Below are positions 884-6,985 of a DNA stretch of 7,154 nt, piece after piece; positions within the stretch are counted from its first letter, which is position 1, and the number at the start of each line of letters is the position of its first letter. The translations under genes and the position numbers were made by a program. A model generated the notes under the pieces. The model had not been told where the DNA came from and made no database searches. It saw only the letters and a list, made by a program, of their open reading frames with translations. This DNA comes from a virus. Taxonomy: Duplodnaviria; Heunggongvirae; Uroviricota; Caudoviricetes. The stretch is from IMG/VR virus record IMGVR_UViG_2698536401_000005; one strand, given 5' to 3'.

Positions 884-1155
884 GTATTCGTATCGAAATT
901 GGCGAACGTTATGTTGTTACCAGTGACAGCTTTCAGTTTATTCTCCACGAGAAAAAGAGAGCGGAAAGCGGTAAAAACGCCGGTCAGGAATGGCTGGCGG
1001 TGGTTGGTTATTACCCGAAATTAAGCCAGCTCGTTTCCGGCCTGATGCATCACGATATTCTGACCGGAAGCGCAAAATCTTTTGCCGATTTAAACGCGCA
1101 GGTTGAGCAACTCAGCAGGCGTTGTTCAGAGGCTTTTGGCTCATATGGACGTTAA
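880..1155 (+). CDS. Small early-operon hypothetical protein (91 aa) immediately upstream of gene A
   Basis: ATG at 880 overlaps the upstream stop (ATGA); stop TAA at 1153-1155 overlaps the start region of the long replication ORF. No motif recognised. Confidence 0.5.
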   Translation: MSIRIEIGERYVVTSDSFQFILHEKKRAESGKNAGQEWLAVVGYYPKLSQLVSGLMHHDILTGSAKSFADLNAQVEQLSRRCSEAFGSYGR

Positions 1156-3235
1156 AGCCTCCGGGCGTTTTGTCCCTCCGTCAGCATTTGCCGCAGGCAC
1201 CGGTAAGGCGTTTACCGGTGCTTATGCATGGAACGCGCCACGCGAGGCTGTCGGGCGCGAAAGACCTCTTACACGTGACGAGATGCGTCAGGTGCAAGGT
1301 GTTTTATCCACGATTAATCGCCTGCCTTATTTTTTGCGCTCGCTGTTTACTTCACGCTATGACTACATCCGGCGCAATAAAAGCCCGGTGCACGGGTTTT
1401 ATTTCCTCACATCCACTTTTCAGCGTCGTTTATGGCCGCGCATTGAGCGCGTGAATCAGCGCCATGAAATGAACACCGACGCGTCGTTGCTGTTTCTGGC
1501 AGAGCGCGACCAGTATGCGCGCCTGCCGGGGATGAATGACAAGGAGCTGAAAAAGTTTGCCGCCCGTATCTCATCACAGCTTTTCATGATGTATGAGGAA
1601 CTCTGCGATGCCTGGGTGGATGCGCATGGCGANNNNNNNNNNNNNNNNNNNNNNNNNNNNNNNNNNNNNNNNNNNNNNNNNNNNNNNNNNNNNNNNNNNN
1701 NNNNNNNNNNNNNNNNNNNNNNNNNNNNNNNNNNNNNNNNNNNNNNNNNNNNNNNNTTTCTTAAATCGTGTGACCTTGAAAACAGGGAAACCGGCGAACG
1801 CATCGACCTTATCAGTAAGGTGATGGGCAGTATTTCTAATCCTGAAATTCGCCGGATGGAGCTGATGAACACCATTGCCGGTATTGAGCGTTACGCCGCC
1901 GCAGAGGGTGATGTGGGGATGTTTATCACGCTGACCGCGCCGTCAAAGTATCACCCGACTCGTCAGGTCAGAAAAGGCGAAAGTAAAACCGTTCAGCTTA
2001 ATCACGGCTGGAACGATGAGGCATTTAATCCAAAGGATGCGCAGCGTTATCTCTGCCGCATCTGGAGCCTGATGCGCACGGCATTCAAGGATAATGATTT
2101 ACAGGTCTACGGTTTGCGTGTCGTCGAGCCACACCACGACGGAACGCCGCACTGGCATATGATGCTTTTTTGTAATCCACGCCAGCGTAACCAGATTATC
2201 GAAATCATGCGTCGCTATGCGCTCAAAGAGGATGGTGACGAAAGAGGAGCCGCGCGAAACCGTTTTCAGGCAAAACACCTTAACCGGGGCGGTGCTGCGG
2301 GATATATCGCAAAATACATCTCAAAAAATATCGACGGCTATGCACTGGATGGTCAGCTCGATAACGATACCGGCAGGCCGCTGAAAGACACTGCAGCGGC
2401 TGTTACCGCATGGGCGTCAACGTGGCGCATCCCGCAATTTAAAACGGTTGGTCTGCCGACAATGGGGGCTTACCGTGAACTACGCAAATTGCCTCGCGGC
2501 GTCAGCATTGCTGATGAGTTTGACGAGCGCGTCGAGGCTGCACGCGCCGCTGCAGACAGTGGTGATTTTGCGTTGTATATCAGCGCGCAGGGCGGGGCAA
2601 ATGTCCCGCGCGATTGTCAGACTGTCAGGGTCGCCCGTAGCCCGTCGGATGACGTTAACGAGTACGAGGAAGAAGTCGAGAGAGTGGTCGGCATTTACGC
2701 GCCGCATCTCGGCGCGCGTCATATTCATATCACCAGAACGACGGACTGGCGCATTGTGCCGAAAGTGCCGGTCGTTGAGCCTTTGACTTTAAAAAGCGGC
2801 ATCGCCGCGCCTCGGAGTCCTGTCAATAACTGTGGAAAGCTCACCGGCGGTAATACTTCGTTACCGGCTCCCACGCCTTCTGAACACGCCGCAGCCGTGC
2901 TTAATCTGGCTGATGACGGTGTTATCGAATGGAATGACCCGGATGTCGTGAGGGCGCTCAGGGGCGCATTAAAACACGGGCTGAGAACGCCAAATCGTCA
3001 ACAAAGAAACGGAAGCCCGTTAAAACCGCATGAAATTGCACCATCGGCCAGACTGAGCCGGTCTGAACGATTGCAAATCACCCGTATCCGCGTTGACCTT
3101 GCTCAGAACGGTATCAGGCCGCAGCGATGGGAGCTTGAGGCGCTGGCGCGTGGCGCGACCGTAAATTATGACGGGAAAAAATTCACGTATCCGGTCGCTG
3201 ATGAGTGGCCGGGATTCTGGCATCAATTTGAGTAA
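1145..3235 (+). CDS. A: Rolling-circle replication initiation endonuclease, P2 gpA family (HUH superfamily); interrupted by an N-run
   Basis: Long ORF with an H-W-H (HUH) metal-binding motif at nt 2150-2158 (GTPHWHMMLF) and a paired-tyrosine motif YIAKYISK (Y at 2303-2305 and 2315-2317), the Y-x3-Y arrangement of phiX174/P2 A-type initiators. First ATG is at 1145; the ORF track's start at 1103 is a TTG. Stop TAA at 3233-3235. The frame is preserved across the N-run. Confidence 0.88.
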   Translation: MDVKASGRFVPPSAFAAGTGKAFTGAYAWNAPREAVGRERPLTRDEMRQVQGVLSTINRLPYFLRSLFTSRYDYIRRNKSPVHGFYFLTSTFQRRLWPRIERVNQRHEMNTDASLLFLAERDQYARLPGMNDKELKKFAARISSQLFMMYEELCDAWVDAHGXXXXXXXXXXXXXXXXXXXXXXXXXXXXXXXXXXXXXXXXXXFLKSCDLENRETGERIDLISKVMGSISNPEIRRMELMNTIAGIERYAAAEGDVGMFITLTAPSKYHPTRQVRKGESKTVQLNHGWNDEAFNPKDAQRYLCRIWSLMRTAFKDNDLQVYGLRVVEPHHDGTPHWHMMLFCNPRQRNQIIEIMRRYALKEDGDERGAARNRFQAKHLNRGGAAGYIAKYISKNIDGYALDGQLDNDTGRPLKDTAAAVTAWASTWRIPQFKTVGLPTMGAYRELRKLPRGVSIADEFDERVEAARAAADSGDFALYISAQGGANVPRDCQTVRVARSPSDDVNEYEEEVERVVGIYAPHLGARHIHITRTTDWRIVPKVPVVEPLTLKSGIAAPRSPVNNCGKLTGGNTSLPAPTPSEHAAAVLNLADDGVIEWNDPDVVRALRGALKHGLRTPNRQQRNGSPLKPHEIAPSARLSRSERLQITRIRVDLAQNGIRPQRWELEALARGATVNYDGKKFTYPVADEWPGFWHQFE
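1633..1756. other. Run of 124 N (masked or unsequenced bases) inside gene A
   Basis: Literal n characters in the sequence. The A reading frame stays open and in register on both sides. Confidence 0.99.
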
Positions 3236-3325
3236 TGATCTCATCTATACAGTATTAAGCAGTTTTGACTGTAATTGATTGTTTTTTATATGGTTGCATG
3301 CATTAAATCTACGTCAATATCATTA

Positions 3326-3334
3326 TGTTATAAT
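3326..3334 (+). promoter_or_regulatory. Candidate extended -10 promoter element (TGtTATAAT) for the cargo genes
   Basis: TG at 3326-3327 and a perfect TATAAT at 3329-3334, in a very AT-rich intergenic stretch (3236-3362) about 30 nt upstream of the DUF2158-like gene's ATG. A TTGACT hexamer also lies at 3265-3270, possibly part of a second promoter. Sequence pattern only. Confidence 0.4.
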
Positions 3335-3362
3335 GCATTACTTAAAAATGTTGGAGACAAAA

Positions 3363-3554
3363 ATGTTAAAGCCTGCAGATGTTGTTTGTTTGAAAAGCGG
3401 TGGATTTAAAATGACTGTATCTGACTCTACTGAGACTCATGCTAAATGTATTTGGCATGATAAAGAAGGAGTTTTGCACGAGGAGTCATTCTCCATTGAT
3501 TTACTGGAAATAGCAGAGAGTAAAAGTGGTATGCTGTGTCGTCCACGTAAGTGA
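3363..3554 (+). CDS. Small protein (63 aa) resembling the DUF2158/YodC-like family
   Basis: GGAG at 3352-3355 sits 7 nt upstream of ATG 3363. The N-terminal pattern 'KPADVVCLKSGGFKMTV' resembles the conserved G-D-x-V-x-LKSGGP-x-MTV signature I recall for DUF2158 proteins. The ORF track's start at 3279 lacks an RBS and is probably too far upstream. Confidence 0.55.
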   Translation: MLKPADVVCLKSGGFKMTVSDSTETHAKCIWHDKEGVLHEESFSIDLLEIAESKSGMLCRPRK

Positions 3555-3581
3555 ATCACAATAAAATTCACGGGGGAAAGT

Positions 3582-4262
3582 ATGAAACAATACAGCGAAT
3601 TAGAAAACAATGTTAAGAGATTCATTGTTGAGCATGAAAAAGGGATTTCTATTGATGATATTCATCATAAGTTCCGGATGAAGGATGGTCAGAATCGCAA
3701 GATGGCAGATTATCTTATTGATAATAAAAAGATAATTTTGGAGATGAAAAGTCTTTTTTCTGACAGGGTCAAGAATGTCAATGATAAATTGAATGAGTTG
3801 GTTAAAACTGATAGTTGGCTTGCAAAAAACTGGCATGGTGCTATTCATTTAGAAGAGTTGATAAAAAGACACCCAGACTCAAAGCGATTTAGAAATGATA
3901 TAATGAACTTTGCTTATGAAAATATTAAAACAAAGGTAGTTAAAGAAGCTAATAAGCAAATAAATGCAACAAAGGATGTTTTGGGTTTAAATGACTCGAT
4001 TGGCGGATTGATTTTGTTAAATGATAATGTCTTTTCACATGAGTTTAATTATTTGTCAGATGAAATATTATATTTGCTAGGCACAAAGAGATATTCGAGT
4101 GTTGAGTTTGTGGTTTATATTGCAAAATTGATTGATAAACAGGTTGATGTTTGTGTGCTACTTGACAGTCAATCTAAAAATAAAAATTATATTGAATGGT
4201 ATATGAATAATGTTTTTTTGTTGAACTGGGCGTCTTTTAATAAATATGCAATAAAGATGTAG
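3582..4262 (+). CDS. Unrecognised 226-aa protein, AT-rich cargo gene (candidate defence-associated)
   Basis: ATG at 3582 with GGGGGAAAG just upstream; lies 27 nt after the DUF2158-like gene, so probably co-transcribed. Very low GC and Lys/Asn/Ile-rich composition unlike the phage backbone. No catalytic motif recognised. Confidence 0.6.
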   Translation: MKQYSELENNVKRFIVEHEKGISIDDIHHKFRMKDGQNRKMADYLIDNKKIILEMKSLFSDRVKNVNDKLNELVKTDSWLAKNWHGAIHLEELIKRHPDSKRFRNDIMNFAYENIKTKVVKEANKQINATKDVLGLNDSIGGLILLNDNVFSHEFNYLSDEILYLLGTKRYSSVEFVVYIAKLIDKQVDVCVLLDSQSKNKNYIEWYMNNVFLLNWASFNKYAIKM

Positions 4263-4511
4263 TGGTGTGGATGGATATGAAATGAGTCAACCAAGATGCA
4301 CCTTGGTCAGTAATCTCATGTGAGATACCACATATAACACCAAAAGTGTCAGGTTGATGGCCATTGTTCACCGTTTACAGCAGATTATGGTCAACGAAAA
4401 TCTGACGCCCGATGAGCTAGTCGGGTGTGCCGAAATAGTCAGGGATAATTACGAACAGCTTAACTATATCGGTCAGTCCAGCCTTGCGCCGCCACCACGC
4501 AGACGATAGAG

Positions 4512-4554
4512 AACCCCGCCAGCAATGAAACATGTTTTCAGTGCTGGCGGGGTT
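4512..4554. terminator. Near-perfect 43-bp palindromic hairpin between convergent genes (candidate bidirectional terminator)
   Basis: Arms aaccccgccagca (4512-4524) and tgctggcggggtt (4542-4554) are exact reverse complements (13 bp). The loop contains a second palindrome aaacatgttt (4528-4537). It lies ~30 nt past the stop of the minus-strand 313-aa gene and directly after the small plus-strand ORF ending at 4509. No clean U-tract on the + side; a pyrimidine-rich tract follows on the - side. Confidence 0.5.
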
Positions 4555-4582
4555 GAACAACGAACGAAGTGAGGCGTTAGCA

Positions 4583-5524
4583 TTAAGTTAATTTTAATGA
4601 ATGGTACTCTCGTGAGTTGACCGAAGATTTGAGATAACCGCAATCATTAACCGACAGTATTGCCGCTAATAGGCGACAAACGAGTTTCTGCATTTGCAGT
4701 AATATATCGTTACCATATTGATTGTTGTTAACACTGGAAAAACCAAGTGGTTGGCCAAAAAAAATAGCCTCATGAAAATTATCATTGCGGATGCCAGAAA
4801 TGTTTTTTTTGCCTGATACCCATGTGGGGATTGATAACCCATAAATTCTGCACATCCACTTTAATCGCTTGGAATGATTTGGCTGGGTTTTATCAGGAGC
4901 CTTGTCATGCTCAGCCCACGATAAAGCAAAGCAACCATCAAGTGCCATGTAAAGGTACTGGAATTTTTCAAAAGGAAGGTATTGTGGGTTTTGAGATAAG
5001 AATAGCGCATGCACCACTGCCGCAATTCTTTTGGGGGAGTGCGCATCCTTTTGTTTGTTAGTTATATAATTAAGAGCCAGTTCTATGACTTCTTTTTCAG
5101 AGCATCCAACGAGAATAAAATCGGTTAACTTAGTGGGCTTGATAGTGGTTGCATCAAGAAAACCAGCGTCAGTGGTTGTCAATCTTATACCCTTGAAAAA
5201 AGAGAGGCACCACACAACAAAGTTGAGAGTTTCTAACGAGGATGTGTTTTTTAATTTTAGTGTGTGCGTTTTGGGCATGCCGAATACTCGGTAACTATAA
5301 GGCATTGTGCATGAGTCACCATTAAGGTTATATACCTTTCGATTCCCAGGGTATATCCAACCATTAACAACGTTTTTATCATTGTTAATACGTTCCACTT
5401 TCTCAATAAGACCGGGTAAAGTACGCAAAGAAAATTGTTCAGTCTCAATGTTAACTTCTACTGGATAGTATCCAAACTCCGAAATAATCTCATTTGGTTG
5501 CTGTTCGTCAACTTCGCCTTGCAT
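4583..5524 (-). CDS. Unrecognised 313-aa protein with a C-terminal R-N-x3-H (HEPN-like) motif; candidate abortive-infection/defence effector
   Basis: ATG at 5524-5522 (minus strand) preceded by GGAGAAAG; stop at 4585-4583. AT-rich like the other cargo genes. Residues R246-N-D-N-F-H251 (nt 4772-4789) fit the HEPN RNase signature R-[N/Q/H]-x3-H within a predicted helical C-terminal half. The family call rests on this single motif plus context. Confidence 0.6.
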   Translation of the reverse strand: MQGEVDEQQPNEIISEFGYYPVEVNIETEQFSLRTLPGLIEKVERINNDKNVVNGWIYPGNRKVYNLNGDSCTMPYSYRVFGMPKTHTLKLKNTSSLETLNFVVWCLSFFKGIRLTTTDAGFLDATTIKPTKLTDFILVGCSEKEVIELALNYITNKQKDAHSPKRIAAVVHALFLSQNPQYLPFEKFQYLYMALDGCFALSWAEHDKAPDKTQPNHSKRLKWMCRIYGLSIPTWVSGKKNISGIRNDNFHEAIFFGQPLGFSSVNNNQYGNDILLQMQKLVCRLLAAILSVNDCGYLKSSVNSREYHSLKLT

Positions 5525-5762
5525 AACTTTCTCCGTTCAAAAACAGGCACGATAATTCTCGTAAGCCTATCATGTTCGCAAAGTATCCATACCTGTGGAT
5601 TTTGTAAATTTAAGTTGGTTTGTCATTAAATAAGCCGTTGCATGCAACAAGTGAATGTTTTTGCATGCGTCGGGGATGTCCGTTCAGGCTGCGTGCGGTC
5701 AGGACTGGTGCGGATCCATAGTATCTATGCAACTGCATTAAAACCGCCCCATGAAGCGGGCG

Positions 5763-5950: not shown

Positions 5951-6985
5951 TCAGCCGTTGTCAGTGTCCAGTGAGTAGTTTTTAAAGCGGATGACCTCCT
6001 GACCGAGCCAGCCGTTTATTTCCCGAATCCTGTCCTGTAACGGGATAAGCTCATTGCGGACAAAGACCTTTGCCACTTTCTCAATATCACCCAGCGACCC
6101 GACGTTCTCCGGCTTGCCGCCCATCAACTGAAAGGGGATGCGGTGCGCGTCCAGCAGGTCAGCGGCGCTGGCTTTTTTGATATTAAAAAAATCGTCCTTC
6201 GTCGCCACTTCACTGAGCGGGATAATTTTAATGCCGTCGGCTTTCCCCTGTGGTGCATAGAGAAACAGATTTTTAAAGTTGTTGCGGCCTTTCGACTTCA
6301 CCATGTTTTCGCGGAGCATTTCGATATCGTTGCGATCCTGCACGGCATCAGTGACGTACATGATGTATCCGGCATGTGCGCCGTTTTCGTAATACTTGCG
6401 GCGGAACAGCGTGGCCGACTCATTCAGCCAGGCAGAGTTAAGGGCGCTGAGATATTCCGGCAGGCCGTACAGCTCCTGATTAATATCCGGCTCCAGCAGG
6501 TGAAACACGGAGCCGGGCGCGAAGGCTGTCGGCTCGTTGAAGGACGGCACCCACCAGTAAATATCCTCTTCCACACCACGGCGGGTATATTTTTCCGGTG
6601 AGGTTTCCAGTCTGATGACCTTACCGGTGGTGCTGTAACGCTTTTCCAGAAATGCATTACCAAATACCAGAAAATCCAGCACAAAGCGGCTGAAATCCTG
6701 CTGGGAAAGCCATGGATGCGGGATAAATGTCGAGGCCAGAATATTACGTTTGACGTAAATCGGTGAGCTGTGATGCACGGCAGCACGCAGGCTTTTTGCC
6801 AGACCGGTAAAGCTGACCGGCGGCTCATACCATCTGCCGTTACTGATGCATTCGACGTAATCCAGAATGTCACGGCGGTCGAGCACCGGCACCGGCTCAC
6901 CAAAGGTGAATGCCTCCATTTTCGGGGCGCTGGCAGTCATTTTTTTTGCCGCAGGTTGCGGTGTTTTCCCTTTTTTCTTGCTCAT
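5951..6985 (-). CDS. Q: Phage portal protein, P2 gpQ family (344 aa)
   Basis: 344-aa ORF, the same length as P2 gpQ, positioned next to cos and immediately downstream of the terminase gene on the same strand. Its start ATG (6985-6983) overlaps the upstream stop as TGATG. Identification is by recollection of the family and by synteny. Confidence 0.85.
   Translation of the reverse strand: MSKKKGKTPQPAAKKMTASAPKMEAFTFGEPVPVLDRRDILDYVECISNGRWYEPPVSFTGLAKSLRAAVHHSSPIYVKRNILASTFIPHPWLSQQDFSRFVLDFLVFGNAFLEKRYSTTGKVIRLETSPEKYTRRGVEEDIYWWVPSFNEPTAFAPGSVFHLLEPDINQELYGLPEYLSALNSAWLNESATLFRRKYYENGAHAGYIMYVTDAVQDRNDIEMLRENMVKSKGRNNFKNLFLYAPQGKADGIKIIPLSEVATKDDFFNIKKASAADLLDAHRIPFQLMGGKPENVGSLGDIEKVAKVFVRNELIPLQDRIREINGWLGQEVIRFKNYSLDTDNG

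What the first reader, a model, noticed from the sequence alone, without database searches (positions are those of the whole stretch)
3582..4262. Unrecognised 226-aa AT-rich protein co-transcribed with the DUF2158-like gene
No catalytic or binding motif is recognisable by eye. Composition (Lys/Asn/Ile-rich, low GC) differs sharply from the phage backbone. It lies 27 nt downstream of the small DUF2158-like gene and behind the extended -10 promoter, so the two probably form an operon. It could be a standalone defence protein, a partner of the convergent 313-aa gene, or a superinfection-exclusion factor. The N-terminal ~60 residues could form a winged-helix-like unit, but that is speculative.
Basis: inference. 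Interest (0 to 1): 0.6.

Follow-up and report, generated by a model that had tools for sequence, protein, structure and literature searches.

The report
Unannotated nuclease-fold gene in P2 hotspot
The 226-aa gene is real and most likely encodes a previously unannotated restriction-endonuclease-fold nuclease that travels with a tiny DUF2158 partner gene in the known anti-phage "hotspot" of P2-like prophages; this makes it a plausible but untested, already-catalogued candidate defence pair rather than a new kind of system.

Summary
The ORF (3582-4262, 226 aa, 30% GC against about 54% in the backbone) is confirmed. It lies in a P2-like prophage between gpA and the portal gene, the established P2 defence hotspot. 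The island is 99.5% identical to the 2006 "P2-EC67 ORF73/ORF226/ORF313" deposit. Rousset et al. 2022 already list the pair as untested "system 63 - DUF2158" (67 occurrences, no function given).

New findings:
D43, E54-x-K56 and Q126 are 99-100% conserved across 141 distant relatives and sit in the canonical strand positions of a high-confidence model (pLDDT 93.5).
- The DUF2158 gene is strictly coupled to ORF226 in the P2-borne clade (27 of 27 E. coli genomes). It is absent from homologues at 65% identity or less, for example on Pantoea plasmids.
- The convergent 313-aa gene is an independent cargo.
- The proposed N-terminal winged helix is not supported.

A defence function is plausible but untested.

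The parts
3326..3334 (+). Extended -10 promoter element, TGtTATAAT. No good -35 is present. Candidate promoter of the two-gene cassette.
   Evidence: Read directly from the sequence. The consensus scan, which requires a -35, did not list it. The deposited ORF73 start (ATG 3333) overlaps this element, so ATG 3363 is the likelier start.
3363..3554 (+). 63-aa DUF2158 small protein gene, with SD GGAG at 3352-3355. Dedicated partner of ORF226 in P2-like phages.
   Evidence: Pfam PF09926 E 1.2e-7. Orthologues are 62 aa. dN/dS is 0.20-0.25. Strict co-occurrence with ORF226.
3582..4262 (+). ORF226: a single-domain protein with a predicted PD-(D/E)xK (restriction-endonuclease-like) fold.
3708..3749 (+). 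Codons for the putative catalytic core: D43 (3708-3710), E54 (3741-3743) and K56 (3747-3749).
   Evidence: Invariant in 42 relatives at 21-41% identity. 99% conserved in 141 domain sequences. D43 precedes strand 44-46, and E54/K56 lie in strand 51-58.
3957..3971 (+). Codons for Q126 to T130 (QxxxT) on the long helix that precedes core strand 140-148.
   Evidence: Q126 is 100% and T130 96% conserved in 141 domain sequences. Helix 113-134.
4322..4580 (.). Conserved P2-backbone spacer that bounds the cassette on the right and separates it from the ORF313 cargo slot. It holds a 51-aa ORF (4354-4509) and an 11-bp inverted repeat (4514-4524 / 4542-4552).
   Evidence: About 86-89% identical in P2, Wphi and many other P2-like phages and prophages that lack the cassette. 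phrog_11386. The inverted repeat is read.

Best explanation
ORF226 is a divergent, previously unannotated member of the PD-(D/E)xK (restriction-endonuclease-fold) nuclease superfamily. It has an intact metal-binding and catalytic set: D43, E54-x-K56, plus an invariant Q126. In P2-like prophages of E. coli, Salmonella and Citrobacter it is carried as a two-gene accessory cassette with a dedicated 63-aa DUF2158 protein. The cassette has its own extended -10 promoter and sits in the left slot of the gpA-gpQ hotspot.

The most likely role is anti-phage (inter-viral) defence: a methylase-less nuclease expressed from the lysogen cuts the nucleic acid of a superinfecting phage, or host DNA in an abortive response. 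The DUF2158 protein would be a clade-specific modulator (inhibitor, specificity factor or trigger adaptor), not an essential subunit.

Shown: gene reality, fold-level and motif evidence, co-occurrence, hotspot location. Inferred: nuclease activity, co-transcription, the defence role, and the role of DUF2158.
For: Motif: D43, E54, K56 and Q126 are the only invariant columns among 42 relatives at 21-41% identity. They are 99-100% conserved in 141 domain sequences.

Profile link: REase_DpnII-MboI is the only recurrent Pfam hit among 59 single-domain relatives (12 of 59). It aligns to the D...ExK segment. PDDEXK_3 and Tox-REase-9 each hit once.

Location: the gene lies between gpA and gpQ in a P2-like prophage, which is the established defence hotspot (PMC9122126; PMC13586616).

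Contexts of relatives: next to DUF4238 and a BamHI R-M system in a recombinase-bearing element; in an island with GIY-YIG, DUF4145, Mrr_cat and SLATT genes; in an operon with an LmuA-like gene and a DAC cyclase.

Pairing with DUF2158. Rousset's Table S5B lists the same two proteins as system 63.

Selection: dN/dS 0.07-0.09.
Confidence: 0.55

Rival explanations
1. Toxin-antitoxin-like (abortive infection) module. ORF226 is a constitutively toxic nuclease. The small, more acidic DUF2158 protein (pI 6.3 against 8.9), encoded just upstream, is its antitoxin. Infection destabilises the antitoxin and the nuclease kills the cell.
For: The gene order (small gene upstream), the 27-nt gap and the shared promoter match type II TA architecture. 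Co-occurrence in the P2 clade is strict. TA-like Abi systems are common in these hotspots (PMC9122126).
Against: Homologues at 63-65% identity keep every conserved residue yet stand alone, with no DUF2158-like ORF nearby. These include Pantoea IncFII-type plasmids (24 contigs read that carry the gene) and L028. More distant relatives are also solo, or have unrelated upstream genes. In L027 the DUF2158 ORF is truncated to 39 aa while the nuclease gene is intact; this is a single assembly.
Confidence: 0.2
2. A nuclease with a non-defence phage or element function. Examples: a recombination, replication or packaging accessory; an anti-satellite or anti-host-defence function; or a selfish homing-type endonuclease that maintains the cassette in the hotspot.
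For: The nuclease fold and motif. Occurrence on mobile elements of several kinds: P2-like phages, an IncFII-type plasmid, and an integrative element. Only about 21% of cargo protein groups in this hotspot match DefenseFinder (bioRxiv 10.1101/2024.10.15.618418).
Against: It is present in only 0.4-0.5% of P2 hotspots or E. coli genomes, so it is dispensable for P2 biology. It sits in the accessory slot with foreign GC content. Relatives repeatedly neighbour defence genes.
Confidence: 0.15
3. Not an active nuclease. The fold resemblance is generic alpha/beta, and the conserved D/E/K/Q residues serve ligand or protein binding, for example a regulatory or scaffold protein.
Confidence: 0.1

Closest known systems
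Rousset et al. 2022 P2-hotspot 'system 63 - DUF2158' (Table S5B, PMC9122126); GenBank AM157369 P2-EC67 ORF73/ORF226/ORF313
   Same: The same two proteins in the same locus. The S5B entry gives an ORF226-type sequence that differs at a few residues, together with the identical 63-aa DUF2158 protein. The island is 99.5% identical to AM157369.
   Different: Those sources give no fold, motif, function or test. Here the larger protein is assigned to the PD-(D/E)xK fold, the pair is delimited from ORF313, and a wider superfamily is found.
PD-(D/E)xK restriction-endonuclease-fold nucleases: BsmI catalytic domains (PDB 9EZD) and Pfam PF18742 REase_DpnII-MboI
   Different: No profile reaches threshold. 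A roughly 75-residue helical insertion (about residues 59-134) carries an invariant QxxxT. There is no DNA-recognition domain and no cognate methyltransferase.
P2 Old and Tin, the classical phage-exclusion genes at the same gpA-gpQ locus
   Same: Same hotspot position in P2-like phages. Accessory genes expressed from the prophage. Old is also a nuclease (PMC9122126; bioRxiv 10.1101/2024.10.15.618418).
   Different: No sequence or domain relationship. Old is an ATPase-TOPRIM nuclease, whereas ORF226 is a minimal single-domain REase-fold protein with a small partner.
NucC / Cap4-type effector nucleases of CBASS and type III CRISPR
   Different: The window has no cyclase. ORF226 lacks the C-terminal extension of that relative. 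The PADLOC CBASS hits among relatives came from a SEC-C zinc motif, not from this domain.
P4 gop-beta-cII, a validated hotspot system
   Same: A small accessory cassette in a P2/P4 hotspot. One of its proteins gives HHpred matches to DpnII-MboI and PDDEXK families (Rousset Table S3, seen).
   Different: A different element and different proteins. There is no detectable homology to ORF226, and PADLOC carries those models but does not hit ORF226.

Membership tests
PD-(D/E)xK nuclease superfamily | Restriction-endonuclease-like alpha-beta-beta-beta-alpha-beta core fold | tested here: met
PD-(D/E)xK nuclease superfamily | Catalytic D ... (D/E)xK motif, with D at the start of the second core strand and (D/E)xK in the third | tested here: met
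   D43-x10-E54-x-K56 is invariant in 42 relatives and 99% conserved in 141 domain sequences.
PD-(D/E)xK nuclease superfamily | Significant sequence-profile match to a curated PD-(D/E)xK family | tested here: inconclusive
   ORF226 itself has no hit. REase_DpnII-MboI hits 12 of 59 relatives and the family consensus, always on the motif segment but at about 16 bits against a 27-bit cut-off. hhalign against FokI and against Mrr_cat-like domains was negative.
PD-(D/E)xK nuclease superfamily | Divalent-metal-dependent phosphodiester cleavage; active-site geometry superposable on a known enzyme | not testable with these tools
Rousset 2022 P2-hotspot system 63 (DUF2158) | The ORF226-type protein plus the 63-aa DUF2158 protein between gpA and gpQ of a P2-like prophage | tested here: met
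   Sequences were found in Table S5B.
Type II restriction-modification system | Cognate DNA methyltransferase encoded with the nuclease | tested here: not met
   There is no methyltransferase in the island or beside the homologues examined. The BamHI R-M system near P0027 is a complete, separate system.
Type IV (modification-dependent) restriction enzyme | A modified-base reader or NTPase module coupled to the nuclease, and cleavage of modified DNA only | tested here: not met
   The protein is single-domain and no reader or NTPase domain is detected. Substrate preference is not testable here.
Type II toxin-antitoxin pair | Obligate co-occurrence of toxin with its antitoxin; toxin lethal alone | tested here: not met
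   Coupling is strict only in the clade at 76% identity or above. Homologues at 65% or below, with an intact motif, lack any DUF2158 ORF. The partner is truncated in L027. Toxicity was not tested.
CBASS / cyclic-nucleotide-activated effector nuclease | Cyclase partner and a nucleotide-sensing domain | tested here: not met
   There is no cyclase in the window. The PADLOC E2 and cyclase hits among relatives map to the SEC-C motif or to other regions. Only one distant 346-aa relative is next to a DAC cyclase.

The most novel reading that the evidence does not exclude
DUF2158 plus ORF226 is a new two-component anti-phage system in which a 63-aa DUF2158 protein gates or targets a minimal PD-(D/E)xK nuclease. 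The ORF226-like domain (D-ExK-QxxxT) defines a new, widespread effector-nuclease family, with at least 349 representatives at 50% clustering. That family is reused in multidomain conflict proteins and in at least one operon based on a DAC (diadenylate cyclase) protein, which would point to a nucleotide-signalling defence class not yet described.
Probability: 0.3. Interest if true: 0.6.

Novelty: new member of a known kind. Interest (0 to 1): 0.42.

Why it matters
The finding turns a "hypothetical protein" that recurs in about 0.4-0.5% of E. coli P2-type hotspots, and also in Salmonella and Citrobacter, into a concrete hypothesis that can be tested by mutagenesis: a minimal nuclease with named catalytic residues. 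It delimits the functional unit as a two-gene cassette that excludes ORF313. It gives the first functional context for a phage-borne DUF2158 protein. It also exposes an unannotated nuclease-domain family with hundreds of representatives, none named by Pfam, NCBIfam or PADLOC, which defence-annotation tools currently miss. If validated, the family would add a compact system to the defence catalogue. If not, it remains an ordinary uncharacterised piece of hotspot cargo.

Tried and rejected
1. CBASS link. The PADLOC E2, E1-E2, cyclase and PDC-S12 hits among relatives map to roughly 30-residue C-terminal SEC-C zinc motifs, not to the ORF226-like domain. Rejected.
2. Mrr_cat hits in the 560-740-aa relatives lie in a separate N-terminal domain (residues about 3-115), while the ORF226-like domain is at about 350-520. 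hhalign between the two gave probability 0.6%. By eye those N-terminal domains appear to lack ExK. Uninformative.
3. hhalign of the family against the FokI cleavage domain (sequence recalled from memory): no alignment.
4. Foldseek against the PDB: no hit below E 0.3. The afdb50 library was unavailable.
5. PDB sequence and profile searches found nothing or only de novo designed helical repeats, which are spurious. DUF2158 and ORF313 also have no solved relatives.
6. PLSDB plasmids: no tblastn hit, although Pantoea plasmid contigs carry a homologue.
7. The genome-contig scan with the close-family patterns gave no confirmed locus. The broad alignment was too divergent for pattern scanning.
8. ORF313 as a partner: rejected on distribution.
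9. Winged helix at the N-terminus: rejected.
10. The original P2-EC67 paper (Odegrip et al. 2006, PMC1367236) is not held. No paper mentions the accessions or P2-EC67. The two papers that mention DUF2158 give no function.
11. The last large protein search returned only 'hypothetical protein' names (plus one 108-aa fragment that JGI labels 'transcriptional regulator of NAD metabolism') and no precomputed Pfam domains for relatives.

Full report
**Setting**

The window is part of a P2-like (Peduovirus) prophage. It carries a TraR/Ogr-type zinc-finger gene (659-883) and the replication gene gpA (1103-3235, interrupted by 124 masked N). A low-GC island spans about 3240-5640. The portal gene gpQ lies on the minus strand at 5951-6985. 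The gpA-gpQ interval is the classical "old/tin" variable locus of P2, now recognised as a hotspot of anti-phage systems (PMC9122126; bioRxiv 10.1101/2024.10.15.618418; PMC13586616).

**Observation**

- The ORF at 3582-4262 is real and encodes 226 aa.
- Its composition is K 11.9%, N 10.2%, L 10.2% and I 8.4%. Its GC is 0.30, against 0.54 and 0.53 for gpA and the portal gene.
- It starts 27 nt after the stop of a small gene that matches Pfam DUF2158 above threshold, and it is preceded by a GGGGGA ribosome-binding site.
- A perfect extended -10 (TGtTATAAT, 3326-3334) lies upstream. It is followed by GGAG and ATG 3363, which gives a 63-aa DUF2158 protein. That length matches the 62-aa orthologues.
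- The longer starts, TTG 3279 (the 91-aa ORF) and ATG 3333 (the deposited ORF73), are therefore less likely.
- Both genes are under purifying selection: dN/dS is 0.07-0.09 for ORF226 and 0.20-0.25 for DUF2158.
- Co-transcription is an inference from the spacing and the single promoter-like element.

**Prior record**

The island is 99.5% identical to GenBank AM157369, "Bacteriophage P2-EC67 proviral ORF226 and ORF313" from E. coli ECOR67, where the three genes are called ORF73, ORF226 and ORF313. Rousset et al. 2022, Table S5B, lists "system 63, Pfams: DUF2158, 67 occurrences in P2 hotspot". Its two proteins are the ORF226-type sequence and the 63-aa DUF2158 sequence, and the notes field is empty. 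Table S5A has rows "DUF2158 + hypothetical + hypothetical". The sequences are not in their tables of tested systems, and no paper in the library mentions the accessions. The pair is therefore catalogued but uncharacterised.

**What ORF226 is**

Curated libraries do not recognise it. Pfam, NCBIfam and PADLOC give nothing, and PHROGs gives phrog_20483 of unknown function. The close family is small: 26 clusters, all Enterobacterales, down to 63% identity.

An exhaustive HMM search of 1.84 billion representatives found 349 relatives at E of 1e-3 or better, and 74 at 1e-10 or better. Among the 150 best hits, which are the ones that could be examined, they include single-domain proteins of about 200-260 aa, a large group of about 335 aa with a C-terminal extension, and proteins of 560-740 aa in which the domain is C-terminal.

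Conservation:
- Across 42 relatives at 21-41% identity, the only invariant columns are D43, E54, K56 and Q126.
- Across 141 domain sequences, A42-D43, E54 and K56 are 99% conserved, Q126 100%, T130 96% and N147 97%.

Structure:
- With the 59-sequence alignment, AlphaFold2 gives a confident model (pLDDT 93.5, pTM 0.88).
- D43 immediately precedes strand 44-46, and E54-x-K56 lies within strand 51-58.
- A helical region follows, ending in helix 113-134, which carries Q126 and T130. Then come strand 140-148, a helix and two more strands.
- This is the canonical PD-(D/E)xK arrangement (established knowledge of the fold).

Fold and profile searches:
- Among 59 single-domain relatives, the only Pfam family that recurs is REase_DpnII-MboI (12 of 59). 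PDDEXK_3 and Tox-REase-9 each hit once.
- The DpnII-MboI match falls on the D...ExK segment: consensus residues 24-60 against profile positions 54-90.

Weaknesses:
- All profile hits are sub-threshold.
- Foldseek against the PDB finds nothing significant.
- I could not inspect a residue-level superposition.

I put the nuclease-fold assignment at about 0.8.

**Partners**

In complete E. coli genomes the DUF2158 gene and ORF226 occur in exactly the same 27 of 5,426 genomes, always adjacent. In 50,697 phage records each occurs in the same two records. The DUF2158 subfamily is as narrow as the P2-borne ORF226 clade.

The pair persists in Citrobacter and metagenomic P2-like phages at 76-83% identity, where the rest of the hotspot differs (a 250-aa unknown, or DUF2188) or is empty. 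An HMM screen found a DUF2158 ORF upstream of every homologue at 76% identity or above, although it is truncated in L027.

Homologues at 65% identity or below lack it. These are the Pantoea IncFII-type plasmids, L028 beside an MTES_1575/DUF559 gene, and more distant relatives. DUF2158 is therefore a clade-specific, long-linked partner and not an obligate subunit or antitoxin.

ORF313 is independent:
- It occurs in 98 E. coli genomes, about 70 of them without the pair.
- It occurs in other phages beside different left-hand cargo.
- It is separated from the pair by a backbone segment (4322-4580) that is conserved in P2, Wphi and others.
- In the 27 E. coli genomes that carry the pair, all three genes do travel together. 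That co-travel fits shared descent of the block, because the two modules are found apart elsewhere.

**Function**

No methyltransferase, reader domain, NTPase or cyclase accompanies ORF226.

Relatives sit in defence-type neighbourhoods:
- Beside DUF4238 and a BamHI R-M system, downstream of a CI-like repressor, in a recombinase-bearing element.
- In an island with GIY-YIG, DUF4145, Mrr_cat and SLATT genes.
- For one 346-aa relative, in an overlapping three-gene operon with an LmuA-like protein and a DAC-domain cyclase. This is a single instance.

Together with the hotspot location, this makes an anti-phage nuclease the best reading (about 0.55 overall). The rivals are a TA/Abi-type module (0.2), a non-defence nuclease function (0.15) and a non-catalytic protein (0.1). 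How self-DNA would be spared, and what DUF2158 does, remain unexplained.

**Novelty and score**

The gene pair is already catalogued and the hotspot is well known. What is new:
- the fold and motif assignment;
- the delimitation of the functional unit;
- the clade-limited partnership with DUF2158;
- an unannotated nuclease-domain family of hundreds of representatives (one search shows only 'hypothetical' names, apart from one fragment that JGI labels a transcriptional regulator, and no Pfam domains).

I classify it as a new member of a known kind: PD-(D/E)xK nuclease cargo in a defence hotspot. Interest is 0.42.

Noticed in passing
L029:2223-5696 (L030 is the same element): Three tandem, overlapping genes. 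The first is a 312-aa protein with PADLOC PDC-M58A and LmuA N-terminal hits. The second is a 497-aa protein with DACND, DACNH and DAC (diadenylate cyclase) domains. The third is the 346-aa relative P0044, with an ORF226-like nuclease domain plus a C-terminal extension of about 120 aa. This looks like an undescribed nucleotide-signalling defence operon. It is one instance only.
   Followed up: partly
window 4583-5524 (-): ORF313, a convergent 313-aa protein. It has no Pfam, NCBIfam, PADLOC or PDB match (phrog_5937, unknown function). It is present in 98 complete E. coli genomes and in Yersinia and Salmonella P2-like phages, independently of the DUF2158-ORF226 pair. It is a separate uncharacterised hotspot cargo.
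   Followed up: partly
window 4322-4580: A conserved backbone spacer holding a 51-aa ORF (4354-4509, phrog_11386) and an 11-bp perfect inverted repeat (4514-4524 / 4542-4552). It is about 86-89% identical in P2, Wphi and many prophages, and it splits the gpA-gpQ hotspot into two cargo slots. RefSeq PGAP labels the 51-aa ORF 'meiotically up-regulated 80 protein', an evident misnomer.
   Followed up: partly
window 1633-1756: A run of 124 N inside the gpA gene. It is masked or unresolved sequence, so the gpA translation contains a run of X.
   Followed up: no
P0043, P0046, P0047, P0055, P0062, P0114, P0130 (560-740 aa relatives): Multidomain relatives combine an N-terminal Mrr_cat-like domain with the ORF226-like domain at about 350-520. 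By eye the N-terminal domain appears to lack the ExK motif, and one gave a weak NA-iREase1 hit. Some also end in a SEC-C zinc motif. Their architecture and context are unexplored.
   Followed up: partly
window 3363-3554 vs 3582-4262, compared with L009, L010, L025: For the same genome pairs, synonymous divergence of the DUF2158 gene (dS about 0.65) is roughly half that of ORF226 (dS 1.2-1.7), although the two genes are adjacent. The cause could be composition or saturation effects, or recombination between the genes. It is unexplained.
   Followed up: no
L005-L008 (Pantoea ananatis plasmid contigs), gene at L005:6001-6723: The homologue at 63% identity (240 aa) stands alone on an IncFII-RepA plasmid. 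It lies next to a PLD-family (PLDc_2) nuclease gene and, in some variants, near a Macro-domain gene and a PemK toxin. PLSDB holds no copy.
   Followed up: partly
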